Assembly: GCA_001823605.1 (NCBI GenBank)
Contig: MHUZ01000034.1
Location: 38,589-102,588 of the forward strand
Source of the DNA: Candidatus Yonathbacteria bacterium RIFOXYD1_FULL_52_36
GTDB lineage: Bacteria > Patescibacteriota > Minisyncoccia > Phycocordibacterales > UBA1539_B
Direction of reading: 5' to 3'
DNA: 64,000 bases
Position 1 is the first letter of the stretch; each line of letters opens with the position of its first letter. Of this stretch, positions 1,256-47,842 are shown in pieces. Position numbers and translations under genes: made by a program. A model generated the notes under the pieces. That model had not been told where the DNA came from and did not search any database. It saw only the letters and a program-made list of their open reading frames with translations.

Positions 1256-1858
1256 CTACTCAAGAATGCCGTCAAGGTTCACGTCGTACAGGATCTCATC
1301 CTGAACAAGGCGATACTTAACGATCTCATCCTCGGTAAACCAGAGATTGATCTCCCGTTCCGCCTCAGACACCTCGTCGGTGCAGTGCAATAAGTTGCGC
1401 ACTGCGCGACCGTCCATACTTGAGAGTTCGTATGAGTCGATCATGAGGTCCCCGCGGATCGTACCGACGTCTGAGGTAAGCGGTTCGGTCGTTCCCACAA
1501 GCTTTTTCACGATAGCCACCGCCTGGTTTCCCTCAACCACCATTGCGAGAACAGGGCCTGAGGTGAGCAAGCTGACACACCCACGGATGATATCTTTACC
1601 GTATTCGATTGGCTCTTTTTCCACCGGCATACTCTGATTTTTAAGGTCTTCAACAGTGCGTAGTCCCTTTTTGAGGAACCATTCGTCGTTTTTATTGTAG
1701 TGATCCCAGCATTGCTCATCCTTGGGAACAATAAACTTCATGGCGACAAATTTTAGACCGGTTCGTTCAATACGGCCAAGGATCTCACTCATGAGACTTC
1801 TTTGGATCGCATCGGGCTTTAAGATAACCAGTGTCCTCTCTTTCTTCGGATGTGCCAT
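1256..1858 (-). CDS. ndk: nucleoside diphosphate kinase (long form)
   Basis: ERTLVILKPDAIQR...GNQAVAIVKKLVG motifs of NDK. Start chosen at MAHPKKERT. Confidence 0.8.
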   Translation of the reverse strand: MAHPKKERTLVILKPDAIQRSLMSEILGRIERTGLKFVAMKFIVPKDEQCWDHYNKNDEWFLKKGLRTVEDLKNQSMPVEKEPIEYGKDIIRGCVSLLTSGPVLAMVVEGNQAVAIVKKLVGTTEPLTSDVGTIRGDLMIDSYELSSMDGRAVRNLLHCTDEVSEAEREINLWFTEDEIVKYRLVQDEILYDVNLDGILE

Positions 1859-1934
1859 AAATATATCAGTAACTAGCAAATAGAGCCCTCATAGTACCAG
1901 ACTCGGGTCAAAAATCAATGCCGACAGAACTACC

Positions 1935-4694
1935 TTATCCCGTGCGATACTTCCGCATGATCTCTGCTTCCACTTCTTCGCGCGGACGGCCATAGAGGAG
2001 CGCGGAGAGCTCTTTTAATTTTGGCACGATCTCCGGATTTCCGGGCGTTGGCGGGAGCGTCGCAATGTTGAACGGGCGCGATGGTACGCCATTCACGAGC
2101 ATCTTTACGTACGCGTTCCTGTTCTCAACCTTGATGATATCTTGCGCAGTGAACGTCGGCTTGAATTCTTCCTGCAAGAACTCGGCATCTTCGGTACCCA
2201 CACGGAACACCACTTTTGAGCCAACGTTGCCGAAGACCGCATTCCTAATATTATCTTCGAGCTGTTTAATATACTGGTGCGCGACCGTAAGCGAGAGGCG
2301 GTACTTACGTGCCTCAGAGAGGATAGTCGCGATCGAATCGGTGGTCACATTCTGAAATTCGTCTATATAAAGATAGAAGTCCGCCGGCTTCTCTCCGCGC
2401 GCGAGCATATCGGTTCGCGAAAGCGCTGCCATGAGGATCTTCCCCACCAGCACAAGACCGATCAAGTTCGAGTTGATCTCTCCCAAGCGCCCCTTGGAAA
2501 GATTCACCAAAAAGATCTTTTTCTGGTCCATGATATCGCGGAAATTGAACGCTGAACGCTCCTGCGCAATGATCGGGCGCATCACGTCATTCGTGATGAA
2601 CACGTCAAACTTGTTGGTGACATAGGGAACATAGTTGGCAAGTCCCTGATCGCCGGTCGTTTTTTCGGCATTATCCCAGAACTGCTTAATGATAGGGTTC
2701 TTACAGCGTGAAAGCTTTAGGTCGCGAAATGCCTTATCCGAGAGTACTCGTCCGATCTCAAGGAGCGTGTTCCCCGAGGAGGGGTCATCCATCACAAGGA
2801 GTGCTGAGTTTCTAAAATATTGCTCAAATGCCGGTCCACCGGCAGTCTTCATATCAAACAATTTGTTAAAGATCGCCAAAAGCTCGTTCGCCACAAAGAT
2901 CTTCTGTTCGGGGAACCGTACATCGTATTCAAGCATATTGAGTCCCATAGGGCGCTCGGTCGCTGCCGGATCAAAATAAATGACGTCATTAATGCGCTCG
3001 CGGGGAATATTCGCCAAAATATCCTCAATATCATTCCCGTGAGGATCAATGAAACACACACCATCGCCGTTTTTGATATCCTGCACGATCATGTTCTTAA
3101 GGAGCGTGGTTTTACCGGTTCCGGTCTGACCGATAACGTACATGTGGCGCACACGATCCTCCTCTGTCATTCGCACCTCGGTTTCCTGCCCCTGGTAGCG
3201 GTTCACGCCGAGCACCACGCCTTGGTTCGGTACATCCACGGGCGCTGGCGCATTCTTGCCTGACACCGCCTGTTTTAATTTGGGCGCATCAAGACGCGTG
3301 ACCGGATAATGAAAGATCGTAGTGAGCTCTTTAGTCGAAAGCTCCATTACCTCTTCAGGAGCGTAGGTGCGAAAAATAAATTCGCGCAACAGTTTTATTC
3401 TTTGAGCGCCTTCAACGTTCTTAAACGCGATCCGATTTCCCACTCCCGTATCAGCAAACTGTTGGAACGCTGACTCGACCTCAAGAAGGATCGCGCGGGC
3501 GCGTACATCATCAGCAGCAGATGCCACTACGCGAATGTTCGTATCCACAACCGGTGTTGAGGTCTTTTTCTCGATCGCTTCGATCAAGCGCTGGTTGACT
3601 TCTTTTTCTGCTGACCGCTTCTCGCCTTCATCTTTTTTCGACGCACCAAAGAAGAGCTCCTTTGCCGATTCTGCAAATTCGTGCGCAACACCTGCTAGTT
3701 CACTTTGAAGCGCCTCTTTGAGCGGGATTCCTTTCTTGATACGCTCTAAAACCTTTCTGTACTCATTGGTGCGAATATGAGAGACCGGAGAAACCACGAT
3801 CTGCACCGCCGCACCCTCCCCTTCACGCTTCATTTTTGAAAAGACGCTCAGCAATACCTGGAGCGGATCATACTGAAATGTATCGTACGTCTTGAGTGGC
3901 AAAATATCTTCTTCCGCAAGGCGCGCATACCCACCAACCGTTGCTCCACTATCTTCAAAAGGATTGTAGTCTTCTCTGTGCTCCCGAAGAGTCACCCCGG
4001 GGAAGATCGCGCGGACATGCTTCTCGAACAAGTCCGCACGGTCGATCGGCACTGCGGTATAAAAAATGATCTCATCGCTGTAATTTGAAAGTGCGATCTC
4101 GATCGTAAAGTGCACATCGGAAACTCCCCCTTTGGGATCTTTGGTGAGTGAGAGCATGCCGGCATAGAATTGCTCCATCTTGGCGACAAGCTCGGCAAAC
4201 GTACGCTTTTCATCGTCATCATCCTCATTCTGAAGCGTCACTTCATACAGCTTCATGCGGAGAGCACCAAAAAGCCTGCCTCCCTGCTCGAGACCGGGAA
4301 TCGGCAACTGTTCTCCCACATACTGAACCAAGAAACGATGGAAGTCATCTTCAAGGTGGGGGTTTTTTGACCGCTCGGCCATGACCAGCGCAGTCTTGAG
4401 CCCTTTCGAGCGCATCACCTCAATGAGTTCGTCCACCCGTCCTTCGTGTGATTCCGACATATTGAGCACTTCGCGCTCAATATGATCAATCGGGTCAAGG
4501 TTCCCCTGTTTGTAGACAGCGATCTCTTCACGGATCATCCGTTCTCTCCCCTCCTGTGAACTAGGTTTCTCGGGCAGGGTGATCTGCTCACGCTCGGCAA
4601 CCTTGGCGCGCAAATACGCGATCTCCTCTTCAGGAGTTTTGAAGTGCGTTCCGGAAAATGTTTCCGGCGCCTTGGTGCCGAATGAAATGTTCAT
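1935..4694 (-). CDS. TraG/TraD/VirD4(TrwB)-family coupling-protein-like P-loop ATPase (FtsK/HerA superfamily), cytoplasmic with no N-terminal TM segment
   Basis: Walker A GQTGTGKTT followed by FIDPHGN (DPKG-like motif of VirD4/TrwB). Walker B LYIDEFQNV. 919 aa. No hydrophobic N-terminus. Confidence 0.6.
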   Translation of the reverse strand: MNISFGTKAPETFSGTHFKTPEEEIAYLRAKVAEREQITLPEKPSSQEGRERMIREEIAVYKQGNLDPIDHIEREVLNMSESHEGRVDELIEVMRSKGLKTALVMAERSKNPHLEDDFHRFLVQYVGEQLPIPGLEQGGRLFGALRMKLYEVTLQNEDDDDEKRTFAELVAKMEQFYAGMLSLTKDPKGGVSDVHFTIEIALSNYSDEIIFYTAVPIDRADLFEKHVRAIFPGVTLREHREDYNPFEDSGATVGGYARLAEEDILPLKTYDTFQYDPLQVLLSVFSKMKREGEGAAVQIVVSPVSHIRTNEYRKVLERIKKGIPLKEALQSELAGVAHEFAESAKELFFGASKKDEGEKRSAEKEVNQRLIEAIEKKTSTPVVDTNIRVVASAADDVRARAILLEVESAFQQFADTGVGNRIAFKNVEGAQRIKLLREFIFRTYAPEEVMELSTKELTTIFHYPVTRLDAPKLKQAVSGKNAPAPVDVPNQGVVLGVNRYQGQETEVRMTEEDRVRHMYVIGQTGTGKTTLLKNMIVQDIKNGDGVCFIDPHGNDIEDILANIPRERINDVIYFDPAATERPMGLNMLEYDVRFPEQKIFVANELLAIFNKLFDMKTAGGPAFEQYFRNSALLVMDDPSSGNTLLEIGRVLSDKAFRDLKLSRCKNPIIKQFWDNAEKTTGDQGLANYVPYVTNKFDVFITNDVMRPIIAQERSAFNFRDIMDQKKIFLVNLSKGRLGEINSNLIGLVLVGKILMAALSRTDMLARGEKPADFYLYIDEFQNVTTDSIATILSEARKYRLSLTVAHQYIKQLEDNIRNAVFGNVGSKVVFRVGTEDAEFLQEEFKPTFTAQDIIKVENRNAYVKMLVNGVPSRPFNIATLPPTPGNPEIVPKLKELSALLYGRPREEVEAEIMRKYRTG

Positions 4695-4741
4695 CCCTTC
4701 TATTATACTGCCCTTCGCATCGAGGGCAAAACACGTTTACC

Positions 4742-5509
4742 CTACGAAAGCGCGGTCAATACCTCGTGTCCTCCCTCAGTGATCAAAATAGTATGTTCAA
4801 AATGCGCACTGCGCTTGCCGTCGGCGGTCTTAAAGGTATAGCCGTCTGGATCAAGGAGAATGCCGCGCGTCCCTTCATTGAGCATCGGCTCGATCGCAAT
4901 CACCATCCCGGGGCGGAACCGCGCACCAGGGGACTTCTGAGTGAAATTTGGAATGTAGGGCTCCTCGTGCACATGACGCCCTACGCCGTGCCCACCCAAT
5001 TCGCGAATGATGCCATAGCGCGAACCCACAAATTTGCCGATCGCGTTGCCAATATCTCCCACCCGTCCTTCCGGACCAACTACCGAAATTGCTTCATCGA
5101 GCGCTCGTTTTGTGGTGTCGATCAACACGCGCGCGGCCTCATCAACAGTCCCTACCGGCACCGTCATTGCCATGTCAACAAAAAATCCCTTGTGGCGTAG
5201 ACCGAGGTCGATCCCAATGATGTCGCCCTCTTTGAGCACATGATCCGCACGCGGAATACCGTGCACGATCTCGTCATTCACCGACGTACAGAGTGTCGCC
5301 GGATAGGGATAGTGCGCACCATCAGGGATGTATCCAAGAAACGCCGGCTCATCTCCCCCTTCACGGATGAGTTTCTCGGCGAGTGCGTCGAGATCTTTGG
5401 TAGAGACGCCGGGGTGAACCGCACCACGAACCAGCACAAGGATCGTGGCGAGACGTTTCCCTCCTTCGCGCAGATGCTGTATTTCTTCCTGTGTGTACGT
5501 CGTGATCAT
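4742..5509 (-). CDS. map: methionine aminopeptidase type I
   Basis: Pita-bread fold signature (IGIDLGLRHKGFFVDMAMTV...GHGVGRHVHEEP). Confidence 0.9.
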   Translation of the reverse strand: MITTYTQEEIQHLREGGKRLATILVLVRGAVHPGVSTKDLDALAEKLIREGGDEPAFLGYIPDGAHYPYPATLCTSVNDEIVHGIPRADHVLKEGDIIGIDLGLRHKGFFVDMAMTVPVGTVDEAARVLIDTTKRALDEAISVVGPEGRVGDIGNAIGKFVGSRYGIIRELGGHGVGRHVHEEPYIPNFTQKSPGARFRPGMVIAIEPMLNEGTRGILLDPDGYTFKTADGKRSAHFEHTILITEGGHEVLTALS

Positions 5510-13770: not shown

Positions 13771-14118
13771 TTATTTCTTCTTCGTGTCAGTTGCGGCAGT
13801 TTTTGCTGCTTTAGCGGCGGTGATCTCGGCCTCTTTCTTCTTCTGCTCGAGTTCCTTCTGCATTTTACCGCCGTGACGAACGAATTTCTTGGTCGGTGAA
13901 AACTCGCCCAAACGGTGCCCGACCATGTCCTCGGTCACCAAAACCTCGATATGATCCTTGCCGTTGTGGACACCAAAGGTAAATCCGACCATTTCAGGTG
14001 CGATCTGGCTTGCACGTGCCCACGTCTTAATAACGCCGCTGGTGCTGGCTTTTTTACCGTCTATTTTCTTAATAAGTTTCGGGTCAATGTAAGGACCCTT
14101 GTGTAGTGATCGTGTCAT
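13771..14118 (-). CDS. rpsS: 30S ribosomal protein S19 with C-terminal extension
   Basis: [12 protein letters not shown]...[17 protein letters not shown]. Confidence 0.9.
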
Positions 14119-14374: not shown

Positions 14375-16759
14375 CTACCGCGGCCTGATCGCGCCAATAT
14401 TAAATTCGCTCGTGTCGGTTGCACTGATACAGCCAGGGTCGGCATCGGCTGGGGTGCCCGCACCGTTAAAATCAGTGTAGCCGTCACTATCGTTGTCGAT
14501 ACCATCACTACAAACTACGTCAGTGAATTGCGTCGAGGAGTCATTTTCGTCATCATCGCTGGAGTCCACACAGCCGGGATCAACCAAAGAGGCGTCGCCG
14601 GTGCCATCATAGTCAATGAATCCGTCGCCGTCATTGTCAGTGTTGTCTACGCACTGCACAGCCACGCAGTACTCCCCATCCCAAACATTACTGCTCCCAC
14701 ACATGGCGGCGGGATAGATCTCAAGGAGCACATCAGTACCATTGCGTGCTTGGATCGTATTCTCCCCGTAGACGATCTCTTTAATTTGCCCAACAGAAGA
14801 CCCTGTCACATACAGTTCTCCTGTTGTTTGGTTGTAGAAGTTCGGAGAAAGCGCGTCGGTAACAGTTCCCACAACGTACGACCAGCACGTACTCATTCCA
14901 CGCGCGATAGTGCAATCGTACGCAGAAAGCGTTGCACTGGGCACAATGGGTGTAGTCGATTCGGTCACGACCACGTCTACCCAGGGGCTGCAGTTGTCAT
15001 TTTCGCTTGTTTCCGGGATGCTGTTGGAACTATCGGCACACGCGCGCATGGAGTAGGTGCCTGCAGTCGGGAATATGTATGAAATACTGCTCACCGCACT
15101 GGTACCACTTGCAAGCGCTGCCCTAGATATCAAGAACTCCTGGATCGTACCCAAACCGTCACTCTGGCTTGCCAGCTCAATCTTGTTCACGAAAGAATTA
15201 CCTGTCGATGCGGCTCCCTCGTTCGTGATGGTCGCAGAGAATGCCGTTGTCTTGCCGGCGAACGCAGTAGTTGGAGCTACTGAAGAAGCCTTGAGGTTGG
15301 ACATGGAGACCGTGACATTTCCCCATGTACTACAATTATTTGATTCATCGGACTCGGCAATGACTCCTCCGTCCGTGCTTGATGACTTGTCAGCACACGC
15401 GCGCATGGAATAGGTGCCTGCTGTCGGGAATGTGTATGCTTTATCTTTTGGGGAAACCGACCCCACATTACTGAGTACGGGGTGCGTCGATGCAGAAAGG
15501 TCTGTGATTCCTCCGTTGCCATCTGCAAGACTTGCCACCTGGAAAAAATACGGGAAGCTTGTGTCGGTGCTTGCGGTACCGTTGTTGTAGATAATTGCTG
15601 AGAATGTCGTGGAGACGCCCGCAATAACGTTTGTGGGCATGGAATACATATTCGCAGTAAGGTCAGGGATACCCAGCCCGCCCGTGACTGTGACCGTGTC
15701 TGATGCGGTTAAGACCGTACCGTCTGTTGCAATACACTGAACAGTAAATACCGTCTTGTCATAAAGAGGAGTCACGGTTGTGTCGAATCCTGCAGTTGCG
15801 TTGCCGGTTTGAAAACCAGAGTCTGCGCCAGAGATCACACTGCACGATGTCGTGTCTCCAGAATCCCAACCCACACTAATGACGTCACCCTTGGAAACAG
15901 TCTTGTACACTGGACCATACGTGAACGCAGTAACATCAACGAACCTCACTTCCGGAGAGACGTACGGGGGCGGAGCCTCACGCTTTTGAATCCTACCTAC
16001 ATCAAAGTTGTTGTCTGCTCCTCCTACAATATACACATTACCTAGGTCATCTGGCTCCATAGAGTATGGTCCATACCAAAGTTGTGCCGCCTCTCCTTGT
16101 ACGGTGTATGGTCCGTAAGTATATTTCGTCATCCATTCCCCTTTGGGAATAGAGTATATTACCCTATTAACAACTCCTTCAGTTGCAGCCTCAATTTGAA
16201 GGTAACTAGGCCAGCTCGAGTTAAAACCTGTATACGTACTGTTCTGCTCAAGAGACAAACTAGTGCGTGAATAGTTGTCATAGACATTACGCATCTTGGT
16301 ATTGTTATCTCCAGCTAAATCATTTACGTCGAAATCTGGACTGGGATCAACATAAACGGAGACAAGACCAAGGTCACTTTTCCTCCTAATCTCCCACGAA
16401 CCTCCCCACATAGATATTTTTATATTATCACTACCATCAAAAGACACATACCTAACTCCATAGGGAGCTACACTTGTTACCTTTGAAAGCAGTGCTCCAC
16501 TACTAGGTGACCACTTTTGAACCAGAGGGGTTGTTACTGTGTAAAAAAAGTAACCGTATCTATTTCTTCCTGTATATACACCAGTTGCATCTGCAGCAGC
16601 GTCAGAAAAATTATCCCCCGCTGAGTCGATTGACCAAATTAAGTCCCCAAAGGCTGCCGATGCCTGCGTGTACCCCGTAAAAAATATCCCTGCGGCAAGC
16701 AGTATGCTTCCTACTGCTGAAAAAATCTGCTTCTGTAGGTAAGTAGTGTTCATGGTCAT
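14375..16759 (-). CDS. large secreted surface protein with beta-propeller-like repeats, two CARDB-like domains, MopE/TSP3-like Ca or metal-binding repeats (CxDGxDNDxDG...DPGC) and a conserved C-terminal tail ...DPGCISATDTSEFNIGAIRPR
   Basis: N-terminal signal peptide (MTMNTTYLQKQIFSAVGSILLAAGIFFTGYTQASA). CARDB-like YTFPTAGTYSMRACAD...NNC modules occur twice. The acidic DNDGDG repeats and C-terminal tail are shared with the 56731-60204 protein. Confidence 0.75.
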   Translation of the reverse strand: MTMNTTYLQKQIFSAVGSILLAAGIFFTGYTQASAAFGDLIWSIDSAGDNFSDAAADATGVYTGRNRYGYFFYTVTTPLVQKWSPSSGALLSKVTSVAPYGVRYVSFDGSDNIKISMWGGSWEIRRKSDLGLVSVYVDPSPDFDVNDLAGDNNTKMRNVYDNYSRTSLSLEQNSTYTGFNSSWPSYLQIEAATEGVVNRVIYSIPKGEWMTKYTYGPYTVQGEAAQLWYGPYSMEPDDLGNVYIVGGADNNFDVGRIQKREAPPPYVSPEVRFVDVTAFTYGPVYKTVSKGDVISVGWDSGDTTSCSVISGADSGFQTGNATAGFDTTVTPLYDKTVFTVQCIATDGTVLTASDTVTVTGGLGIPDLTANMYSMPTNVIAGVSTTFSAIIYNNGTASTDTSFPYFFQVASLADGNGGITDLSASTHPVLSNVGSVSPKDKAYTFPTAGTYSMRACADKSSSTDGGVIAESDESNNCSTWGNVTVSMSNLKASSVAPTTAFAGKTTAFSATITNEGAASTGNSFVNKIELASQSDGLGTIQEFLISRAALASGTSAVSSISYIFPTAGTYSMRACADSSNSIPETSENDNCSPWVDVVVTESTTPIVPSATLSAYDCTIARGMSTCWSYVVGTVTDALSPNFYNQTTGELYVTGSSVGQIKEIVYGENTIQARNGTDVLLEIYPAAMCGSSNVWDGEYCVAVQCVDNTDNDGDGFIDYDGTGDASLVDPGCVDSSDDDENDSSTQFTDVVCSDGIDNDSDGYTDFNGAGTPADADPGCISATDTSEFNIGAIRPR

Positions 16760-17511
16760 TAGGGCATTAGGTAAATCTTCGTTGCGTTGAACCTGTTGAT
16801 CGAGTACACATTCCCCTCACCCCAAGCGGTCACCTGCGCTCCCGCCACAATGTCGCTCATTGTTTTTCCTTCCAAAAACTCCGTGGTCGGGGTAATGGTG
16901 ATCGTGTATCGCTTCGTGACATACGGGACAGTGAACGAGCCACTTGATGTATCGAGACTATCCAGCTTTTCTTCATCGGCAACTTCTGTCTCGATAGTCA
17001 ATGTCTTTCCTCTAACACTGAGTACCTTCCCCGCGATCATGTCGCGTTGTGTAACCTCGTTGATGACTTGTGTTTTGAGATCAAAACGCTCCACGGACAG
17101 CGCCGTGGGGTGATCGGTCTCGTAAATACTTGCGGATAGCACGGTTTTAACGATCAAGCCCGTGGTAATCTCATTCTTCATGAAACCAACGTATGATGTC
17201 TCGGGACTGAGGTTGATAGTGATCTCACGGTCAGAAAACTGAAGTGGTGTCCTTTTTCGCACAGACTCCTCAACAGTATCGACGTCCCCAACTTGAGTTT
17301 TTATGGTGATCGTCGTATCGGTAATCGCCACGACCGTGCCTTCGATATGTGTGCCGCTTGCAATGAGCTCCTGACGAACCTGTGCGGTCAATTCTTCAAC
17401 ACCCATGCCTTGGGGTTCTGGAGTGCGCATGAGGATAAATGCGACGGCCACAACGAGAACCATGAGCCCTACAATGAATACACCCGGCCGTTCTTTTATT
17501 TTTTGAAACAT
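16759..17511 (-). CDS. N-terminally membrane-anchored hypothetical protein, translationally coupled (ATGA overlap) to the downstream surface-protein gene
   Basis: Start at MFQKIKERPGVFIVGLMVLVVAVAFIL (one TM helix), followed by a Thr/Val-rich extracytoplasmic region. Confidence 0.6.
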   Translation of the reverse strand: MFQKIKERPGVFIVGLMVLVVAVAFILMRTPEPQGMGVEELTAQVRQELIASGTHIEGTVVAITDTTITIKTQVGDVDTVEESVRKRTPLQFSDREITINLSPETSYVGFMKNEITTGLIVKTVLSASIYETDHPTALSVERFDLKTQVINEVTQRDMIAGKVLSVRGKTLTIETEVADEEKLDSLDTSSGSFTVPYVTKRYTITITPTTEFLEGKTMSDIVAGAQVTAWGEGNVYSINRFNATKIYLMP

Positions 17512-17582
17512 AGAGAAAGCTGATTTGATTATGTATCTATATAGTACCCCGCGCCAAGAGAAGCGCGGGTGTGGATAACAAA

Positions 17583-17612
17583 AAAAACGGCTCACCTGGG
17601 TGAGCCGTTTTT
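17583..17612. repeat. AACGGCTCA-family palindromic terminator (copy b) immediately 3' of rplB
   Basis: AAAAAAAACGGCTCACC-TG-GGTGAGCCGTTTTTTT. Confidence 0.85.
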
Positions 17613-17619: not shown

Positions 17620-18492
17620 TTAATCGGTGCCTTTTGAGCGCTTGCCGCGCTTTTTGCGGCGAGAAACGATGAGGAGATTTGAATACTTCTTGGGCTTGCG
17701 TGTCTTTACGCCGCCAGTCTTCTTTCCCCATGCAGTCTTAGGATATTTTGTACCACGCGGCTGGCTTCCTTCACCTCCACCGTACGGGTGGTCAACAGGG
17801 TTCATGGCTGTACCACGAACTGTCGGGCGGATACCGAGCCAACGTGAGCGTCCTGCCTTGCCGATCGTGCGAAGTTTGAATTCTTCGTTCGAAACCTCAC
17901 CGATCGATGCCCATGCGGCATCAGGAATGCGGCGCACTTCTGTTGAGGGGAGTTTTACGTGGGTGTAGCCGGCGTCATGTGCAATCACTTCAGCATAGTT
18001 TCCTGCCGAGCGAACGAGACGCGCACCGCCGTTCGGGTGAATTTCAAGATTGTACACGAATGTCCCGACCGGAACATTGCGAAGGAGTGTGCGGTTTCCC
18101 GGAGTGAGGGGTGCTTTTTCTGAAACCAAAAATGACGTGCCGACACTGAGGGCCTTCGGCGCGATCACGTAGCGGCGCTCGCCGTCTGCGTAACACACCA
18201 GCGCAATAAAGCTTGAGCGGTTCGGGTCGTACTCAATAGTCTCAACCTTTGCGGGGATATCACGCTTTGCGTAAAGAAAATCGATCTCGCGATAGAGGCG
18301 CTTGTGTCCACCTCCTTTGTGGCGCACCGTAATGCGACCATCGGCGTTGCGTCCCATAAAACGCTTGCGGCCCTTAGTGAGGGACTTTTTCGGCTCTGAT
18401 GCCGTCAAAACTCCGCGGTACGAGACCGTAGTCATGTGGCGGCGCGACGGTGTTGTTGGTCGATAGCTTTTCATACGCTTATGCAAATTCAA
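17620..18492 (-). CDS. rplB: 50S ribosomal protein L2
   Basis: L2 signature (GRNADGRITVRHKGGGHKRLYR...). Confidence 0.9.
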   Translation of the reverse strand: MNLHKRMKSYRPTTPSRRHMTTVSYRGVLTASEPKKSLTKGRKRFMGRNADGRITVRHKGGGHKRLYREIDFLYAKRDIPAKVETIEYDPNRSSFIALVCYADGERRYVIAPKALSVGTSFLVSEKAPLTPGNRTLLRNVPVGTFVYNLEIHPNGGARLVRSAGNYAEVIAHDAGYTHVKLPSTEVRRIPDAAWASIGEVSNEEFKLRTIGKAGRSRWLGIRPTVRGTAMNPVDHPYGGGEGSQPRGTKYPKTAWGKKTGGVKTRKPKKYSNLLIVSRRKKRGKRSKGTD

Positions 18493-28186: not shown

Positions 28187-29041
28187 TTATCGCACCCGCC
28201 AGATAGTTTTTCCGTCGCTTTTAAAAATGATCGTGCCTTGATCGGCGGTGTTTAAAACTTCGATGTCTGCTTCTTGAAATGTATCGAGAGTTTCCTTGTG
28301 GGGATGGCCATAGGAATTGTTGCTGCCGGAAGAGATGACTGCCGTCTGTGGACTGACTGCCGCAACAAATTCCGGAACACTCGACGTGCGCGAGCCATGA
28401 TGTCCTGCTTTTAAAATATCGCTGTTGACCTTCTCTCCGTCGAGCACGAGCACGTATTGTTCTATCTCGTCCGGTGCATCACCTGGAAACATCACGGACG
28501 TATCGCCGTAGATCAATCGCCCCACGATCGAGCCGGTGTTGGTCGTAACGCCTGAAACATCTCGATCGGGGAACAGCACTTCAAAGTGCGCGCCGCCCCC
28601 AAGGTCGATCACGGTCCCGCGCCGTGCCACGATACGCGTAGCATGGGTGTCTCCTTTTTGTTTCAGAGCCTCATACACGCCGGATGCGCCGATGGTTCCC
28701 GGCTCTACCACCGCGCCGATCCCATACCGCTCAAGAAGCGGAATGAATCCGGCAATATGATCCTTGTCCGGATTTGAAACAAGGATCACATTCACGGTGC
28801 GGTCAAAGAACGGCATCACCTCTGCAAGCGAACGGAGCATCCCACGGTCGGGTCCGCCGTCGATCAACATATCGCCACCGCCCGGCGCACGCACATAGAT
28901 CGCGTCCCCTTGTCCCACGTCGAGAAACGCAATGGTGAGGAGACGCGCATCAGCGCGATACGCTAGATACTGCCATCCAACAAGCGCACAAAAAATACTT
29001 CCCCCAATAACGAAAGCGGTGATCCGGTACGCATTCTTCAT
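28187..29041 (-). CDS. ComEC/Rec2-related metallo-beta-lactamase domain protein, encoded separately from the channel part
   Basis: N-terminal TM then LDVGQGDAIYVRAPGGGDMLIDGG and HHGS motifs of the ComEC C-terminal lactamase_B domain. Confidence 0.8.
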   Translation of the reverse strand: MKNAYRITAFVIGGSIFCALVGWQYLAYRADARLLTIAFLDVGQGDAIYVRAPGGGDMLIDGGPDRGMLRSLAEVMPFFDRTVNVILVSNPDKDHIAGFIPLLERYGIGAVVEPGTIGASGVYEALKQKGDTHATRIVARRGTVIDLGGGAHFEVLFPDRDVSGVTTNTGSIVGRLIYGDTSVMFPGDAPDEIEQYVLVLDGEKVNSDILKAGHHGSRTSSVPEFVAAVSPQTAVISSGSNNSYGHPHKETLDTFQEADIEVLNTADQGTIIFKSDGKTIWRVR

Positions 29042-29043
29042 TC

Positions 29044-29700
29044 ATGAATGGTACAATGCGACGTATGAGCGAAGCAACTATTGAAATGATCATCATCGCC
29101 GCAAGCTACGGCGGCATATTCCTCATGATGATCTTGAATGGCGCGGTAAGCTTCCCCTCAAGTCAGGTCCTCTACATTTTGGTGGGGTACTTCATTGCGC
29201 GCGGAGACCTCGCGCTTGTGCCCGCGGTCATTGCAGGCAGCATCGGCAACATGATCGGCAATATGATCCTCTACGAGATCGCGCGACGCAAGGGCATCGA
29301 GTACATCACGCGCTTCAAACTCTTCCCTCCCGAGATCACTCGTCGCACTGAGATCGCATTCAAAAAACGCGGGGCGTGGTTTGTCTTTGTGGGGAAACTG
29401 CTTCCTGCGATCAAAGTGTTCGTGCCGATCCCTGCCGGTATCGGCAAAATGCACCGCGGGCTTTTTGCTGCGATCATGGTCGTTGCTACGAGTATTTGGG
29501 TACTTCCCTTCACTGCTGTGGGATACTACTTCGGAAAATCGCGTGATGTCTTTGGCGCATACGCATTCGTGCTTCTTGCGATCGCGATCGTGGTCGTCGC
29601 ACTCTTCTTCCGTTATTTAAAGAGCAGTGATGTGGAGCGAGAACTCACCGCACTCGACGAGGGAGAGAGTCGCCACACCAACACGCCGAGTGCTCCGTAG
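29044..29700 (+). CDS. DedA/SNARE-associated family membrane protein
   Basis: Polytopic membrane protein with DedA-like layout. 3' end overlaps the convergent comEC channel gene by 88 nt. Confidence 0.7.
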   Translation: MNGTMRRMSEATIEMIIIAASYGGIFLMMILNGAVSFPSSQVLYILVGYFIARGDLALVPAVIAGSIGNMIGNMILYEIARRKGIEYITRFKLFPPEITRRTEIAFKKRGAWFVFVGKLLPAIKVFVPIPAGIGKMHRGLFAAIMVVATSIWVLPFTAVGYYFGKSRDVFGAYAFVLLAIAIVVVALFFRYLKSSDVERELTALDEGESRHTNTPSAP

Positions 29701-31139
29701 CTGAGAGCCAGAAACCAAACAGGAAGTACCGGGGTCGTTGCGAGTGCGAACGGAAACGAACCAAACCATTCCGCCATACGGAACACATACGCGGAGAGTG
29801 CTTGTGCGAACATACCAAATGGAAACGCCAGAGCAGGAGTAATGAATCCGAGGACCCCTGCAACAAACCCCACGCCCATAATGATCGGTACTACGGGCAA
29901 CACGAGGATGTTCGTGGCGAGGCCAACCACGCTCGCATTGCCGATTGAGAATAGGAGGAGCGGGAGCACAAACACTTCTGCGGCGATCGTCCCCGCGATG
30001 ATCGTGCGTAGTCCAAACGTTTGAGGAACCCGTCCAAGTATTCGTTCAACATGCGGCGCAAACACAATGAGTCCGAGCGTCGCCATAAATGATAACTGAA
30101 ATGAAAGATCGTAAAGAAGAATATGCGGCCGATGTAAAACCATCGCCACGCCGGCGATCACGAGCCCTCGCAAAAGATCATTTGGTCGTCCGAGCGCACG
30201 CGCCAGAACCACCAAAAGCGCCATGATACTCGCGCGTACGACCGTGGACCCTGCACCGGCAAGCAGGGCGAAGAGTACAATGCTCACACTACCGGCGGCA
30301 AACGAAACTGCGCGCGGCAAAAACGCCGTCATGCGCATGAGCGCTTCAGCAACAATGGTGATGTTGTAACCCGAAAGGACGATGATGTGCACGATCCCCG
30401 CATTACGCAGGAGCTCAAGCAGGCGCTCTCCGAGCGATTGCTTCGCACCCAAGAGCATTCCTGCGACCAACGAGGATTCCGGCTCTTCAATACTACGCCC
30501 CAGCGATCCTATGAATGCACCTTTAAGGTCATACAGTGAGCGCTTGAGAGCACTCCCTCCTTCGCCGTCTTCTTGGGTCACGCGGGGAAATGCAATTTCG
30601 TATCCAATGCTGTCCTTTGCAAGGAATCGCTCGTAGTTGAACACACGCCCATCATCACCTTTAAATGATTCGGGGATTTTCAAAATTCCTTCCGCACGAA
30701 TACGATCGCCGTAGGAAAATGCGGGGTACGTCGACACTGAAATGCGCACCCGAATATCTGTTTCGGTATCTGCGACGCGTTCAGCACGAATTACCAAAAA
30801 TGTTTTTGCATCACGTTCATCGGGCTCATCAGCAACAAAACCCTGCACCGCCACGCGCGTGCCGATGAACGACTCAAGGGACACATCACGAAGCGTTCGC
30901 TCTTCATACTCGTATCGAACCGCACCCGCCATTCCGGCAACAAGAGCCCCTGAAACAAGAATGAGTGATATCGATCGTCGCGGTACCGCAAACACAAGCG
31001 CAAGCGCTGCCGCTACGGCAAGCACTTTCAAGAGAACCATTCCGCCTAAAAGCGTCTGCACAAGCACGCCACCAATGAACCCTGCGCAAAGTAGTGCGAG
31101 GATCCGATCGCGCATACCTACGCGTTCCGTGCACCCCAC
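29613..31139 (-). CDS. comEC: ComEC/Rec2 DNA-uptake channel (DUF4131 OB-fold plus Competence domain), no fused MBL domain
   Basis: N-terminal TM helices, OB-fold region (RVAVQGFVADEPDER), Competence-domain helices (HIIVLSGYNITIV). 508 aa. Confidence 0.8.
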   Translation of the reverse strand: MGCTERVGMRDRILALLCAGFIGGVLVQTLLGGMVLLKVLAVAAALALVFAVPRRSISLILVSGALVAGMAGAVRYEYEERTLRDVSLESFIGTRVAVQGFVADEPDERDAKTFLVIRAERVADTETDIRVRISVSTYPAFSYGDRIRAEGILKIPESFKGDDGRVFNYERFLAKDSIGYEIAFPRVTQEDGEGGSALKRSLYDLKGAFIGSLGRSIEEPESSLVAGMLLGAKQSLGERLLELLRNAGIVHIIVLSGYNITIVAEALMRMTAFLPRAVSFAAGSVSIVLFALLAGAGSTVVRASIMALLVVLARALGRPNDLLRGLVIAGVAMVLHRPHILLYDLSFQLSFMATLGLIVFAPHVERILGRVPQTFGLRTIIAGTIAAEVFVLPLLLFSIGNASVVGLATNILVLPVVPIIMGVGFVAGVLGFITPALAFPFGMFAQALSAYVFRMAEWFGSFPFALATTPVLPVWFLALSYGALGVLVWRLSPSSSAVSSRSTSLLFK

Positions 31140-43914: not shown

Positions 43915-44112
43915 TTACTTTGTTCTTCCGTACCGTTTCTCTAGCTCTCCGGAAGCGAGTTCTTTTCCCGACCAGCGTCCAAACCGCGCACCGCATGCCT
44001 GACACGAGATTTCACTTGCCCCATCGTATCGCTCAGGGCTTCCTGGAGCATGCTCAACAAAGACCACGTTCGTGCTGTCACATTTCTTGCATTTTTCTTT
44101 TCCGTTTTCCAT
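43915..44112 (-). CDS. small zinc-ribbon protein
   Basis: CKKCDS...CQAC four-Cys pattern in 65 aa. Confidence 0.35.
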   Translation of the reverse strand: MENGKEKCKKCDSTNVVFVEHAPGSPERYDGASEISCQACGARFGRWSGKELASGELEKRYGRTK

Positions 44113-44125
44113 AAAATATTTGGTC

Positions 44126-45325
44126 TTAATTTTTCTTATTTAAGGACGATGGAACAAAACCGTTTTTCTCCAGGACATAAAATATACCCCGTAGTAAATA
44201 ATTATTGATAAAACCAATCGTGTACACCCTGCTCTTCCCGGGCACAGGACGAAGCATTTCCTTATCTTTAAGTCGCTTGAGAATGCGCGAGCGCTGAACG
44301 GGTGATTCTTTTCCGATGATCACATCGAGGTCTGATGATTTGACGCTCATTGATTTGCTTTTAACCAAAGCGGTTAAAATGCTGAACTCACGTTCAGTAA
44401 TAAGTTTTCGTTCAAGCGCATACGACAAAGACGGTATCAGAATTGTCTCGGTTATATACTTCAGATCAAGCAAGCGATCAATTTTTTCGATCTCCTCTCT
44501 CAGTCCCTCAAGAACGTACGCACACCACCGTAACACCTGTTCTTGCTCACCAGTATCCGCAAGTGCCAAGTTTGCATAGTATTCATTTCGATCCATGCAA
44601 AAGATCGCTGTCGGGTTGAGAATTCTTCCGTTATGGACCTTGAAGCCCTGCTTAATGAGCAGTGCGTAGGTAAACATACGAATTAAACGTCCGTTGCCGT
44701 TATCAAACGGGTGAATCCACGCCATACGATGATGAGAGAGTGCCGTGACCAAGAGGTCGTTCTGGGGACTAGTGTCTGCGTTCACAAAAGCAATAAGCTC
44801 CTCAAAGTAATCCGGCACTTTCACCATATCGGGTGGGATATGTGATGAACCTTGAATTCCGACATTGATCGGTCGCAGACCACCTGGGTAACGAGACCCT
44901 TCTCCGGATGGCGGTGGAGTAAGACCATCCACAATGATCTTGTGCAATTCTGAAATGTGGGCACGCGTGATTATTCCACCCTCCGTAATGGTCTCTTCAA
45001 TGAATTTAATTGCTCGCTCAATGTTAAAAATCTCTCGAATGGATTCCTCTTTGGTATCTTTCGGAACCTGGTCAATGATCTTTTCGACGAATTCTGCAAG
45101 AGTTGTATGATTCCCTTCAATACGCGCAGATCCGAGGCTCTCCATCAGCTGAAAAATATCTTTCAGCTGAAAGAAAATGTACGGCGGCACTGGTCCGCCA
45201 AGCTTTTTTACGCGCAACTTTTCAAGCTCGACAATGGTGCTGGCGAGCTCCGACCCCCACGCCGGTTCGTATATTTTTAGAGGGATTTCTTTGAATTCCC
45301 CTTTATTTACATCTTTAGATTCCAT
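44126..45325 (-). CDS. Fic/DOC family protein (AMPylase-type) with inhibitory helix motif
   Basis: Fic core HPFDNGNGRLIRM. N-terminal SARIEGN matches the (S/T)xxxE(G/N) inhibitory motif. Lower GC than the core genome. Confidence 0.85.
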   Translation of the reverse strand: MESKDVNKGEFKEIPLKIYEPAWGSELASTIVELEKLRVKKLGGPVPPYIFFQLKDIFQLMESLGSARIEGNHTTLAEFVEKIIDQVPKDTKEESIREIFNIERAIKFIEETITEGGIITRAHISELHKIIVDGLTPPPSGEGSRYPGGLRPINVGIQGSSHIPPDMVKVPDYFEELIAFVNADTSPQNDLLVTALSHHRMAWIHPFDNGNGRLIRMFTYALLIKQGFKVHNGRILNPTAIFCMDRNEYYANLALADTGEQEQVLRWCAYVLEGLREEIEKIDRLLDLKYITETILIPSLSYALERKLITEREFSILTALVKSKSMSVKSSDLDVIIGKESPVQRSRILKRLKDKEMLRPVPGKSRVYTIGFINNYLLRGIFYVLEKNGFVPSSLNKKN

Positions 45326-45432
45326 TAATTAACATTTTAAGATAAATTATCTAGTAAATCAAGTGTTTAACAAGATATCTGCTGTACGGTAATTTAACAT
45401 TCTTACATTAACGAAATTAACAGTGGCTCAAA

Positions 45433-45477
45433 AACAAACGGCTCAGCGTAGCTGAGCCGTTTGTTGAGCCGTTTAAT
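45433..45477. repeat. AACGGCTCA palindrome (copy d) with an extra right half-site. Its 26-bp core is identical to copy e.
   Basis: AACAAACGGCTCAGC-GTA-GCTGAGCCGTTTGTT then GAGCCGTTTAAT. Confidence 0.85.
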
Positions 45478-45497
45478 CCATTGCAAATACTGGCTTT

Positions 45498-45956
45498 TTA
45501 CCGGATCGTATAAAACACGTCCTTGCCGGTGGTGCCGTGCTGGCGGATATGTCCTTCTTGTTCAAGCTCGTGGAGATACCGCTCCGCGCTCGCGTCAGAG
45601 ACGCCGAGCAGAGCTTCTACATCGTTATTTTGCACTTGACCGCGCTCGGTGATGAGCGCTAAGACCCGCGCCTTGCGCGCTTCTTTCTCGGCATTCGGTT
45701 CTTTTGCATACACCACTGTCTTGGGTGCGCTTCCCTCCCCATCCTCGATCACGTATGCCGGAAGCTTGCCGCTTGCCATGAGCCAGACCACAGAACCGGA
45801 GCCCACGAACACGAGTGTGAAGAACAGATACTCTGCCGTGCCCATCTCAGGTGCTCCGGCAAAGAATTGCTTGTACGTAACAAAAAGCCAAATAGCGACG
45901 AACAACGGCGGCACGAACCGCTTCTGCCACGCCGGCAAATATACGTTCTTTTTCAT
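45498..45956 (-). CDS. membrane protein with C-terminal winged helix-turn-helix domain
   Basis: Two TM helices then a DeoR/MarR-like wHTH (ERGQVQNNDVEALLGVSDASAERYLHELEQEGHIRQ). Confidence 0.55.
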   Translation of the reverse strand: MKKNVYLPAWQKRFVPPLFVAIWLFVTYKQFFAGAPEMGTAEYLFFTLVFVGSGSVVWLMASGKLPAYVIEDGEGSAPKTVVYAKEPNAEKEARKARVLALITERGQVQNNDVEALLGVSDASAERYLHELEQEGHIRQHGTTGKDVFYTIR

Positions 45957-46100
45957 GTGATTATTGTACCGCAAAACTCCCCAGTAAATCCACAGGCTGT
46001 CCCCAAAAATCACGTCAGGGCATGATTTTGCAGCCCACGGGCTTGATATAATTTAGTTACTGGGATTAGTCGAGCCAGTACAATAAGGAACGAATAGCGT

Positions 46101-47829: not shown

Positions 47830-47842
47830 ACAAGGGGTAAAG

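What the first reader, a model, noticed from the sequence alone, without database searches (positions are those of the whole stretch)
1935..4694. Orphan cytoplasmic TraG/VirD4-like coupling-protein ATPase with no T4SS neighbours
The 919-aa protein has Walker A GQTGTGKTT immediately followed by FIDPHGN (the DPKG-type motif of TrwB/VirD4) and Walker B LYIDEFQNV. These are hallmarks of conjugative coupling proteins and FtsK/HerA-like DNA translocases. It has no N-terminal membrane anchor. No relaxase, VirB4 or VirB-like genes are nearby; it sits between ndk and map at the tail of the ribosomal superoperon. In an organism with T4P- and ComEC-based DNA uptake, such a soluble DNA-pumping ATPase could work in DNA import or processing rather than conjugation.
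Basis: partly seen in the sequence, partly recalled or inferred. Interest (0 to 1): 0.5.

Follow-up and report, generated by a model that had tools for sequence, protein, structure and literature searches.

The report
Domesticated soluble coupling-protein ATPase in Patescibacteria
This gene encodes a membrane-free relative of the ATP-driven "coupling proteins" that feed DNA into bacterial conjugation machines, and in one large group of ultrasmall bacteria (Paceibacteria) it is a conserved housekeeping gene with no conjugation genes beside it, so it has probably been repurposed.

Summary
The 919-aa ORF (1935-4694, minus strand) is real and all three quoted motifs are present. It is identical to a hypothetical protein of a Candidatus Yonathbacteria MAG.

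the C-terminal half is a coupling-protein (T4CP; VirD4/TraD/TrwB) type ATPase with an inserted all-alpha domain. It has no membrane segment. No T4SS or relaxase gene lies in the 64-kb window.
  - aa 1-135 are a helical domain that in sister lineages is a separate small gene in front of a membrane-anchored version.
- **Relatives outside Patescibacteria** sit in Gram-positive conjugation modules, beside a Replic_Relax relaxase and a separate VirB4.
- **In Paceibacteria** the gene is vertically inherited. It occurs in at least 558 species genomes, keeps the map-X-ndk order in about 85% of loci, and is nearly as conserved as map.
- **Already published:** a 2025 survey counted thousands of T4CP homologues encoded away from virB4 in Patescibacteria. 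It lists the likely source assemblies as VirB4-positive.

Verdict: a domesticated coupling protein, probably serving the relaxase-less chromosomal T4SS. A T4SS-independent DNA-handling role is not excluded. New variant of a known kind; moderate interest.

The parts
1935..4694 (-). Whole coding sequence (919 aa plus stop codon) of the DUF8128-type coupling-protein ATPase
   Evidence: ORF and translation; identical protein on record; homologues.
4290..4694 (-). N-terminal helical domain, aa 1-135 (six predicted helices), found only in the 'long' form. It holds the near-invariant motif NPHLEDDFHRFLVQY (aa 111-125, window 4320..4364).
   Evidence: AF2 model; invariant columns. An HMM of this region hits only the small ORFs directly upstream of membrane-anchored relatives, at E=3.5e-5 and 5.8e-4 among 11,509 ORFs. 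No Pfam hit.
3285..4289 (-). DUF8128 (PF26449) domain, aa 136-470, with a predicted VirB4 N-terminal-domain-like alpha/beta fold
3225..3284 (-). Linker, aa 471-490, partly low-confidence in the model
   Evidence: pLDDT below 50 at aa 467-470 and 476-478.
2055..3224 (-). Coupling-protein-type nucleotide-binding domain, aa 491-880. Walker A is at 3105..3131, the FIDPHGN strand at 3033..3053, Walker B at 2346..2372 and the AHQ motif at 2268..2282.
   Evidence: Pfam and NCBIfam; PDB sequence hits to TrwB and DotL; Foldseek TM-score 0.63-0.66 to TrwB, normalised to TrwB length. Walker A residues G522, T524, G525, G527 and K528 are invariant, and D778/E779 are at least 90% conserved across 52 sequences. 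Motif coordinates.
2565..2906 (-). All-alpha domain inserted in the nucleotide-binding domain, aa 597-710
   Evidence: DSSP on the model shows only helices between strands 571-574 and 727-731. Pfam TrwB_AAD_bind matches in two stretches.
1938..2054 (-). Conserved C-terminal helical tail, aa 881-919
   Evidence: Helices 889-901 and 905-917; conserved columns G885, K894, S897, G902, Y901, R905.
4702..4729 (-). Promoter-like site (TTGCCC-16-TATAAT) in the 47-bp gap between map and the ORF; weak evidence only
   Evidence: Consensus scan found 6 sites against 7.0 expected, so this is not significant on its own. Sequence read.
4742..5509 (-). map (methionine aminopeptidase), the conserved upstream neighbour
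   Evidence: Translation. Upstream on the same strand within 3 kb in 51 of 60 relatives' loci.
1256..1879 (-). ndk (nucleoside diphosphate kinase), the conserved downstream neighbour
   Evidence: Translation. Downstream on the same strand within 3 kb in 52 of 61 loci, and directly adjacent in 33.

Best explanation
The gene encodes a soluble, three-part member of the type IV coupling protein (T4CP) branch of the FtsK-HerA ATPases. The parts are a 135-aa helical domain, a DUF8128 domain with the fold of the VirB4 N-terminal domain, and a TrwB/TraD-like nucleotide-binding domain with an inserted all-alpha domain and intact catalytic motifs.

Shown:
- Outside Patescibacteria, its relatives are encoded in monoderm conjugation modules, next to a Replic_Relax relaxase and alongside a separate VirB4.
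- In Paceibacteria the gene has been domesticated. It is inherited vertically, sits in a fixed housekeeping position (map-X-ndk at the end of the ribosomal-protein/secY cluster), has no relaxase nearby, and is about as conserved as map.
- The 'long' form in this window arose from a membrane-anchored form. It lost the anchor and fused with a small partner gene that lies directly upstream in sister lineages.

Inferred:
- It forms a hexameric ring that uses ATP to receive and push or pull a polymer substrate.
- It docks through its VirB4-like domain and fused partner domain, not through a membrane anchor, onto the relaxase-less chromosomal T4SS that these bacteria encode elsewhere.
- The substrate and the direction of transport are unknown. 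With no relaxase and a neighbourhood of nucleotide-handling genes, nucleic acid rather than a relaxase-piloted plasmid strand is the most attractive candidate.
For: **Identity**
- Pfam PF10412, PF02534 and PF12696 score above threshold. The best NCBIfam hits are TraD families.
- TrwB and DotL are the only T4SS ATPases hit by the family profile.
- The AF2 model has pLDDT 84.7. TrwB matches the C-terminal half at TM 0.63-0.66, and TrwK/VirB4 aligns over about 900 columns.

**Relatives in conjugation modules**
- Context in Bacillus, Shouchella and Embleya plasmids: homolog + Replic_Relax + TcpC/TcpE/PrgI + VirB4 (AAA_10, 389 bits).
- BLASTP of the window protein against these homologues gives E 5e-59 to 2e-39 over 680-760 aa. 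Against the same plasmids' VirB4 it gives E>=1e-3.
- Phage relatives: phrog_5156 at E=1e-94, and SPO1 gp27.4 next to a Replic_Relax gene.

**Domestication**
- At least 558 GTDB species genomes carry it, all Patescibacteria.
- Synteny holds in 51/60 and 52/61 loci.
- Median identity is 53.5%, against map 57.7, secY 62.2, adk 37.5 and ndk 36.4 in the same loci.
- No Replic_Relax ORF was found in 1.66 Mb of held DNA: window, CPR loci and the six phage/plasmid loci. No full-length copy was found on viral contigs.

**Fusion and anchor loss:**

**T4SS elsewhere**
- Table S1 of PMC12102498 lists the candidate source assemblies as VirB4-positive.
- That paper reports 5,713 T4CP homologues in Patescibacteria, of which only 148 are near virB4.
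- Anchor-less relatives sit inside plasmid T4SS modules.
Against: - No tool result links this protein physically or genetically to the T4SS.
- I did not see the T4SS of this genome myself. I rely on a published table and on inferring the assembly from protein identity and GC content.
- Two of 11 family-bearing assemblies I could look up are listed as VirB4-negative (Yonathbacteria 43_27 and Nomurabacteria CG1_02_43_90), although these are incomplete MAGs.
- In Southlakia epibionticum the t4cp homologue was not essential while other T4SS genes were (PMC12102498). I could not check whether that homologue is of the DUF8128 type.
- The membrane-anchored relatives in other Patescibacteria are not next to virB4 either.
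- The mapping of this family onto the paper's 't4cp1' calls is inferred from gene order, not verified by accession.
Confidence: 0.5

Rival explanations
1. A T4SS-independent cytoplasmic nucleic-acid translocase. It would work in DNA uptake or processing, for example pulling incoming DNA through ComEC or feeding DNA to nucleases for nucleotide salvage. This is essentially the first reader's idea.
For: - The protein has no membrane anchor and no T4SS neighbours.
- The neighbourhood is made of nucleotide-handling genes. These are adk and ndk in this window, and CYTH (9 loci) and NUDIX (5 loci) genes inserted between X and ndk in relatives.
- ComEC, RecJ and a type IV pilus cluster lie in the same window.
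- A membrane-anchored relative overlaps rmuC.
- Two family-bearing assemblies are listed as VirB4-negative.
- In S. epibionticum the t4cp was dispensable while the T4SS was essential.
Against: - ComEC lies about 25 kb away, and no competence gene is a conserved neighbour.
- Every relative with an informative context sits in a T4SS module.
- The VirB4-like N-domain is a T4SS-machine docking domain in the only solved example.
- Housekeeping neighbours may reflect expression level rather than function.
Confidence: 0.25
2. A chromosome-handling motor that works like FtsK/SpoIIIE (segregation or dimer resolution at division) and has replaced or supplements FtsK in these reduced genomes.
For: - The gene is core, vertically inherited and highly conserved.
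- It belongs to the FtsK-HerA superfamily.
- Membrane-anchored relatives lie near ftsQ-like (POTRA_1) and dnaX genes.
Against: - The FtsK_SpoIIIE Pfam match is below threshold and covers only 28 residues.
- There is no gamma (KOPS-reading) domain. The long form has no membrane tether to the septum.
- I could not test whether these genomes lack ftsK.
Confidence: 0.08
3. It is the VirB4 ATPase of a T4SS rather than a coupling protein.
For: - The best full-length structural matches are TrwK/VirB4, and the N-domain has the VirB4 N-domain fold.
- There is a weak NCBIfam match to a VirB4-like family at aa 357-440.
Against: - No VirB4 Pfam family (AAA_10, P-loop_TraG, CagE_TrbE_VirB) appears among the hits.
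- TIGR00929 scores 29.5 bits against a cut-off of 643.
- No VirB4 chain is reached by the family profile at E<=10.
- Plasmid relatives coexist with a true VirB4, which gives E>=1e-3 against this protein.
- The published Patescibacteria VirB4 is a different protein (virb4 profile with PF19044 or PF12846).
Confidence: 0.05
4. A component of an anti-phage defence system, or a decaying remnant of an integrated mobile element.
For: - PADLOC mad8 matches at E=7e-16 over aa 493-842.
- Structural neighbours include DndH-C, TdpA and HerA defence ATPases.
- Relatives occur on plasmids and phages.
Against: - Synteny is fixed inside a housekeeping cluster.
- Conservation is at housekeeping level and the catalytic motifs are invariant.
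- GC content is the same as the surroundings.
- There are no partner defence genes, integrase or repeats nearby.
- The mad8 match covers only the generic ATPase domain.
Confidence: 0.04

Closest known systems
Type IV coupling proteins VirD4/TrwB/TraD (T4CP, FtsK-HerA superfamily)
   Same: P-loop nucleotide-binding domain with an inserted all-alpha domain. Pfam T4CP families score above threshold. TM-score 0.63-0.66 to TrwB.
   Different: It has no N-terminal membrane anchor. It has about 470 extra N-terminal residues in two domains. It is not encoded with a relaxase or T4SS genes. It is a vertically inherited core gene rather than mobile-element cargo.
DUF8128-type coupling-protein-like genes of Gram-positive plasmids and phages. 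Examples: the 886-aa 'DUF87 domain-containing protein' of B. subtilis plasmid NZ_CP032854, the Embleya plasmid homologue, SPO1 gp27.4, and phrog_5156.
   Same: Collinear homology over about 75-80% of the length, covering both the DUF8128 core and the ATPase. Several members also lack a membrane segment.
   Different: Those genes sit next to a Replic_Relax relaxase, within T4SS or actin-like partition modules on mobile DNA, and share only 22-29% identity. The window's gene has no such partner, carries an extra fused N-terminal domain, and is chromosomal and syntenic.
T4CP homologues of Patescibacteria encoded away from virB4 (Quinonero-Coronel et al. 2025, PMC12102498)
   Same: This protein very probably belongs to that published set: 5,713 VirD4-type homologues, only 148 of them near virB4. 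The authors raised the possibility that they were exapted.
   Different: In the sections and tables I read, the paper does not describe the DUF8128/VirB4-like domain, the missing anchor, the map-X-ndk synteny, the fusion with a small partner, or the link to Replic_Relax-type modules. My mapping to their 't4cp1' hits is inferred, not verified.
VirB4 (TrwK of R388)
   Same: Two-domain layout, with the same N-terminal-domain fold followed by a related ATPase domain.
   Different: The ATPase domain scores with T4CP models, not VirB4 models. Relatives coexist with a separate VirB4.
HerA and FtsK/SpoIIIE DNA translocases
   Same: Same superfamily. The DPHG-type strand after Walker A is also typical of HerA/DUF87 (recalled from memory, not tested here). 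HerA is a good structural match to the ATPase core.
   Different: No HAS-barrel, no NurA partner and no FtsK gamma domain. The Pfam matches are short stretches around the P-loop, and only DUF87 just reaches its threshold.

Membership tests
T4CP (VirD4/TrwB/TraD) | FtsK-HerA-type P-loop domain with intact Walker A and Walker B | tested here: met
   GQTGTGKT at aa 522-529 and DEFQN at aa 778-782. K528 is invariant and D778/E779 are at least 90% conserved in 52 sequences.
T4CP (VirD4/TrwB/TraD) | Match to curated T4CP family models above their thresholds | tested here: met
   PF10412 scores 31.5 bits (cut-off 20.5), PF02534 31.3 (20.1) and PF12696 29.3 (22). All cover only part of each model.
T4CP (VirD4/TrwB/TraD) | Membership of a named equivalog (TraD of SXT, TOL or F type; CD1115 VirD4-like) | tested here: not met
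   The best is TIGR03743 at 65 bits against a cut-off of 366. The others are further below their cut-offs.
T4CP (VirD4/TrwB/TraD) | All-alpha domain inserted in the nucleotide-binding domain | tested here: met
   Helix-only insertion at aa 597-710 in the AF2 model. The TrwB alignment spans 413-462 columns at TM 0.63-0.66.
T4CP (VirD4/TrwB/TraD) | N-terminal transmembrane anchor | tested here: not met
   The maximum 19-residue hydropathy is 1.78, inside the ATPase core. The anchored relative scores 3.09 at its N-terminus.
T4CP (VirD4/TrwB/TraD) | Encoded with a relaxase and/or T4SS genes | tested here: not met
   None was found among the larger ORFs of the 64-kb window or in the two relatives' loci whose genes were listed with Pfam labels. 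No Replic_Relax ORF occurs in the 1.66 Mb of held DNA, which includes all fetched relatives' loci. The feature is met for the plasmid relatives.
T4CP (VirD4/TrwB/TraD) | Hexameric ring that recruits substrates to a T4SS channel | not testable with these tools
   This needs a multimer prediction or an experiment.
VirB4 | VirB4-type N-terminal domain | tested here: met
   [not shown]
VirB4 | VirB4-type ATPase domain (AAA_10 / P-loop_TraG / TIGR00929) | tested here: not met
   These Pfam families are not among the hits. TIGR00929 scores 29.5 bits against 643. No VirB4 chain is reached at E<=10 with the family profile.
VirB4 | Encoded beside VirB3, VirB6 or VirB8-type genes | tested here: not met
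DUF8128-type T4CP-like family (Pfam PF26449 + T4CP domain; phrog_5156) | Collinear DUF8128 core plus ATPase domain | tested here: met
   phrog_5156 matches at E=1.2e-94 over aa 147-915. All listed homologues carry PF26449. BLASTP to plasmid members gives E 5e-59 to 2e-39.
DUF8128-type T4CP-like family (Pfam PF26449 + T4CP domain; phrog_5156) | Adjacent Replic_Relax (PF13814) gene, as in the plasmid members examined and in phage SPO1 | tested here: not met
   No Replic_Relax-like ORF occurs in the window or in any held Patescibacteria locus.
FtsK/SpoIIIE | FtsK_SpoIIIE domain above threshold, membrane domain and gamma domain | tested here: not met
   PF01580 scores 19.2 bits against a cut-off of 24, over 28 residues only. 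There is no membrane segment.
HerA | HerA central and C-terminal domains with a HAS-barrel, and a NurA partner | tested here: not met
   DUF87 scores 24.2 bits against 23.2, over 39 residues only. HerA_C scores 12 against 22. The N-domain is VirB4-like, not a HAS-barrel. There is no NurA neighbour.
MADS defence system (mad8) | mad8-like protein encoded with the other mad genes | tested here: not met
   The partial mad8 match covers the ATPase domain only. The neighbours are map, ndk, adk and secY.

The most novel reading that the evidence does not exclude
A conjugation coupling protein has been turned into a core housekeeping motor of Paceibacteria that imports nucleic acid. It would sit in the cytoplasm under the relaxase-less T4SS (or work on its own) and pull host-derived DNA or RNA into the cell, feeding the adjacent nucleotide-kinase and hydrolase genes (adk, CYTH, NUDIX, ndk). 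That would be the 'alternative means of nucleotide acquisition' that specialists say must exist, because competence is dispensable for growth (PMC11665869). It would also mean that this subfamily keeps an ancestral VirB4-like two-domain layout that links the two T4SS ATPase families.
Probability: 0.2. Interest if true: 0.8.

Novelty: new variant of a known kind. Interest (0 to 1): 0.5.

Why it matters
Patescibacteria cannot make nucleotides, amino acids or lipids. In the one species tested genetically, Southlakia epibionticum, the T4SS is essential, yet its role is described as completely unknown (PMC11665869; PMC12857230).

This gene is a coupling-protein ATPase that is about as conserved as map, is fixed in a housekeeping operon, and has lost both its relaxase partner and its membrane anchor. 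That makes it a concrete, testable candidate for the cytoplasmic motor or substrate receptor of that system, or for a new stand-alone use of a conjugation protein.

Three further points would interest specialists:
- Assigning the VirB4 N-domain fold to DUF8128 gives a function-free Pfam family a structural context.
- It points to a class of coupling proteins that keep the two-domain layout of VirB4.
- The link to Replic_Relax relaxases suggests that relaxase surveys based on standard MOB profiles may miss the partner family, on Gram-positive plasmids at least.

Tried and rejected
- **Literature:** no paper mentions DUF8128. Searches on MADS mad8 and on Replic_Relax-linked coupling proteins in Bacillus gave nothing useful.
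- **Structure tools:** I used an alignment of the window fragment with full-length database proteins instead. The afdb50 fold library was not available.
- **Defence reading:** the PADLOC mad8 and HerA/DndH hits cover only the generic ATPase domain. I rejected this reading because of the fixed housekeeping synteny.
- **Viral contigs:** only ATPase-domain matches at 33-42% identity were found, with no full-length copy. This gives no support for a phage-borne origin of the Patescibacteria form.
- **Hidden relaxase:** an HMM built from four Replic_Relax proteins found nothing in 1.66 Mb of held DNA.
- **Promoter and terminator scan:** site counts were at chance level. The one well-placed promoter-like site is recorded but not relied on.
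- **Published table:** I could not verify by accession that the family equals the paper's 't4cp1' hits. The stored supplementary table is cut off before the Yonathbacteria rows.
- **Membrane-anchored relatives:** I checked whether they sit in T4SS clusters, and they do not. Their neighbours are a small partner ORF, membrane proteins, rmuC, ftsQ-like and dnaX genes.


Full report
**1. Observation**

The minus-strand ORF 1935..4694 encodes 919 residues. FIDPHGN lies 17 residues after the Walker A motif, not immediately after it.

The neighbours are all on the same strand. They are ndk (1256..1879), the ORF, map (4742..5509), adk, secY and then ribosomal protein genes, with intergenic gaps of 55 and 47 bp. 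The protein is identical to OHA82816.1/OHA84862.1 (UniRef100_A0A1G2SJE6) of a Candidatus Yonathbacteria MAG.

There is no membrane segment. The most hydrophobic 19-residue window scores 1.78 and lies in a helix of the ATPase core. Pfam scans of the larger ORFs across the 64-kb window found ComEC, RecJ, PilB, PilC, an MmeI-type restriction enzyme and housekeeping genes. They found no VirB4, relaxase or other T4SS gene.

**2. Anatomy**

The C-terminal half (about aa 491-880) is a coupling-protein-type ATPase.
- Pfam TrwB_AAD_bind, T4SS-DNA_transf and TraG-D_C all exceed their gathering scores.
- The best NCBIfam matches are TraD families, though far below equivalog cut-offs.
- TrwB and DotL are the only T4SS ATPases reached by the single sequence or by a 52-sequence profile. 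No VirB4 chain is reached.

An AlphaFold2 model built on 52 homologues has mean pLDDT 84.7. It shows a helix-only insertion at aa 597-710 inside the nucleotide-binding fold, in the place of the all-alpha domain of TrwB. TrwB superposes on this half at TM 0.63-0.66. The Walker A residues are invariant, and Walker B D778/E779 are at least 90% conserved across the family. I therefore expect an active enzyme.

- Homologues carry Pfam PF26449, which is DUF8128. No paper in the library mentions that name.
- In the full-length Foldseek search, the best matches were the R388 VirB4 protein TrwK, aligned over about 900 columns (E=3.7e-15).
- In Foldseek, all 13 hits with E<=1e-3 were TrwK chains.

DUF8128 therefore has the predicted fold of the VirB4 N-terminal domain. 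The match cannot be to the ATPase half of TrwK, because TrwB, HerA, FtsK and RecA do not appear among the hits.

**3. The first 135 residues**

A search of 1.84 billion representative proteins with aa 1-469 found 840 proteins at E<=1e-3. The full-length ones fall mainly into two size classes.
- The roughly 910-930-aa class is like the window protein.
- The roughly 800-820-aa class begins at about aa 140-200 of the query. In place of the helical extension it has a strong N-terminal transmembrane helix (hydropathy 3.09).

In three loci of this anchored form, a small ORF of 129-162 aa lies directly upstream. I built an HMM from the N-terminal extension of 43 long forms and searched it against 11,509 stop-to-stop ORFs of all held loci. 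Apart from the long forms themselves, it hit only two of these small ORFs (E=3.5e-5 and 5.8e-4). They share a KG..A...NPH..D..H..LV motif.

A rough neighbour-joining tree, without support values, places the long forms inside the anchored forms. All Patescibacteria forms group apart from the plasmid and phage relatives. The long form therefore looks like a fusion of the small partner with a coupling protein that lost its anchor.

**4. Relatives elsewhere**

The PHROGs family phrog_5156 (function unknown) matches aa 147-915 at E=1e-94. Phage relatives cover about half to 80% of the protein at 22-24% identity: roughly 70-80% for SPO1-like phages, phage G, D6E, Brevibacillus phage MRSA107 and phage 0105phi7-2, and about 47-51% for TP-84, SP-10 and Geobacillus phage vB_GthS_PK2.1. 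In SPO1 the homologue gp27.4 overlaps a downstream Replic_Relax gene and follows an actin-like partition gene. D6E has the same actin-like gene upstream.

On plasmids the picture is clearer.
- In Bacillus subtilis and Shouchella clausii plasmids, the 883-886-aa homologue is followed by a Replic_Relax gene, TcpC (shown by Pfam for the B. subtilis plasmid), TcpE, a true VirB4 (AAA_10, 389 bits) and further transfer genes.
- In an Embleya plasmid the order is PrgI (VirB3), VirB4, the homologue, Replic_Relax, then an NlpC/P60 hydrolase.
- BLASTP of the window protein gives E=5e-59 to 2e-39 against these homologues. Against the same plasmids' VirB4 proteins it gives E>=1e-3.

Outside Patescibacteria, then, the family occupies the coupling-protein position of monoderm conjugation modules. 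The Bacillus versions and SPO1 gp27.4 also lack a membrane segment. Lack of an anchor therefore does not argue against work with a T4SS.

**5. Status in Patescibacteria**

All those listed are Paceibacteria-type Patescibacteria: Nomura-, Yonath-, Taylorbacteria, Paceibacterota and Minisyncoccia.

Among loci with enough flank, ndk lies downstream on the same strand within 3 kb in 52 of 61 (directly adjacent in 33). map lies upstream on the same strand in 51 of 60. Where ndk is not adjacent, the inserted genes are mostly a CYTH-domain gene (9 loci) or a NUDIX gene (5 loci).

Median identity to the window protein is 53.5% over 84 loci. In the same loci the figures are 57.7% for map, 62.2% for secY, 49.0% for L15, 37.5% for adk and 36.4% for ndk.

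GC content matches the surroundings. No Replic_Relax-like ORF exists in the 1.66 Mb of held DNA. No full-length copy occurs on viral contigs. This is the signature of a vertically inherited, strongly constrained core gene, not of mobile-element cargo.

**6. What is already known**

Quinonero-Coronel et al. 2025 (PMC12102498) surveyed T4SS genes in Patescibacteria.
- They report a distinct chromosomal T4SS related to monoderm conjugation systems.
- Relaxases are almost absent (109 in 103 genomes).
- They found 5,713 VirD4-type T4CP homologues in 2,918 genomes, only 148 of them near virB4.
- They note that exaptation of t4cp 'cannot be ruled out', because the homologue in Southlakia epibionticum was not essential while other T4SS genes were.

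Their Table S1 lists all Yonathbacteria assemblies with 51-52% GC in their names as VirB4-positive. Of 11 family-bearing assemblies I could look up, 9 are VirB4-positive and 2 are negative.

Their Table S3 shows, in typical Paceibacteria genomes, one high-coverage 't4cp1' hit far from the VirB3/VirB4/VirB2 cluster. By gene order this is probably the present family, but I could not verify it by accession.

Reviews state that the role of this T4SS is unknown. They also note that competence is dispensable for growth, so another route for nucleotide acquisition must exist, with the T4SS as a candidate (PMC11665869; PMC12857230).

**7. Interpretation**

These points are shown:
- the domain identities;
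- the loss of the anchor and the fusion;
- the relatives in conjugation modules;
- the fixed housekeeping position and the high conservation;
- the absence of a relaxase or T4SS nearby.

These points are inferred:
- The protein forms an ATP-driven hexameric ring.
- It docks through its VirB4-like domain and fused partner domain onto the chromosomal T4SS encoded elsewhere, or possibly works alone.
- It handles a polymer substrate that is not a relaxase-piloted plasmid strand.

I rate the T4SS-linked reading at about 0.5 and a T4SS-independent nucleic-acid role at about 0.25. An FtsK-like role, a true VirB4 identity, and a defence or remnant reading are each below 0.1. It missed the N-terminal domains, and its 'orphan' status probably holds only for the locus, not for the genome.

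**8. Novelty and score**

The existence of many T4CP homologues away from virB4 in this phylum is published. I did not find the following described in the papers I read:
- the VirB4-like fold of DUF8128;
- the family link to Replic_Relax-type conjugation modules and to SPO1-like phage genes;
- the map-X-ndk synteny with housekeeping-level conservation;
- the partner-fusion and anchor-loss history.

I classify it as a new variant of a known kind, with interest 0.5. The most novel reading that is not excluded is a domesticated coupling protein acting as a nucleic-acid import motor. That reading would make an acknowledged open question directly testable.

Noticed in passing
window 14375..17595 (minus strand): Two non-ribosomal genes sit inside the S10 ribosomal operon between rplB (17620..18492) and rpsS (13771..14118). 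One is a 278-aa protein with no Pfam match and the other is a 794-aa CARDB-domain surface protein. In one relative (L001) the coupling-protein gene itself follows rplB, so this junction seems to tolerate insertions.
   Followed up: partly
window about 44000..50600: A low-GC island (GC 0.39-0.46 against about 0.52 elsewhere) carries a Fic-domain gene (44126..45325) and a complete MmeI-family restriction-modification enzyme (47843..50593). It is probably horizontally acquired.
   Followed up: partly
window 28187..31139 (minus strand): ComEC appears split. The Competence and DUF4131 domains are in ORF 29613..31139, and a separate metallo-beta-lactamase ORF lies at 28187..29041, with a plus-strand ORF between them.
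   Followed up: no
L087 9479..12415; L092 9615..12472; L093 9574..12523: Other Patescibacteria carry a membrane-anchored version (about 800-840 aa) of the same protein, preceded by a small 129-162-aa ORF. In two of three cases that ORF is homologous to the N-terminal domain of the window protein. In L092 the gene overlaps rmuC. None of the three is next to virB4.
   Followed up: partly
L089 and L090 (Bacillus subtilis plasmid NZ_CP032854, Shouchella clausii plasmid NZ_CP012476): Plasmids typed 'non-mobilizable' by MOB-suite carry TcpE, a VirB4 (AAA_10), a Replic_Relax gene and the coupling-protein homologue, and in the B. subtilis plasmid also TcpC. They look conjugative, so standard relaxase typing may miss the Replic_Relax family.
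   Followed up: partly
L085 (phage SPO1, genes 27.9 to 27.3) and L086 (phage D6E ORF22-23): The lytic phage SPO1 and the integrase-carrying phage D6E carry a plasmid-like module. It comprises an actin-like partition protein, the coupling-protein homologue (SPO1 gp27.4) and, in SPO1, a Replic_Relax gene annotated 'replication initiation by nicking'.
   Followed up: partly
[not shown]
   Followed up: no
loci L011, L014, L018, L028, L029, L033, L034, L043, L045, L049 and others, between the family gene and ndk: Where ndk is not directly adjacent, the inserted genes are mostly a CYTH-domain triphosphatase-like gene (9 loci) or a NUDIX hydrolase gene (5 loci). The gene therefore sits in a small cluster of nucleotide-handling genes.
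   Followed up: partly
window 4702..4741 (minus strand): The 47-bp gap between map and the ORF holds a short inverted repeat (GCCCT-N8-AGGGC) followed by TATAAT and a GAAGGG Shine-Dalgarno-like stretch just before the ATG. This may be an internal promoter or an attenuator.
   Followed up: no
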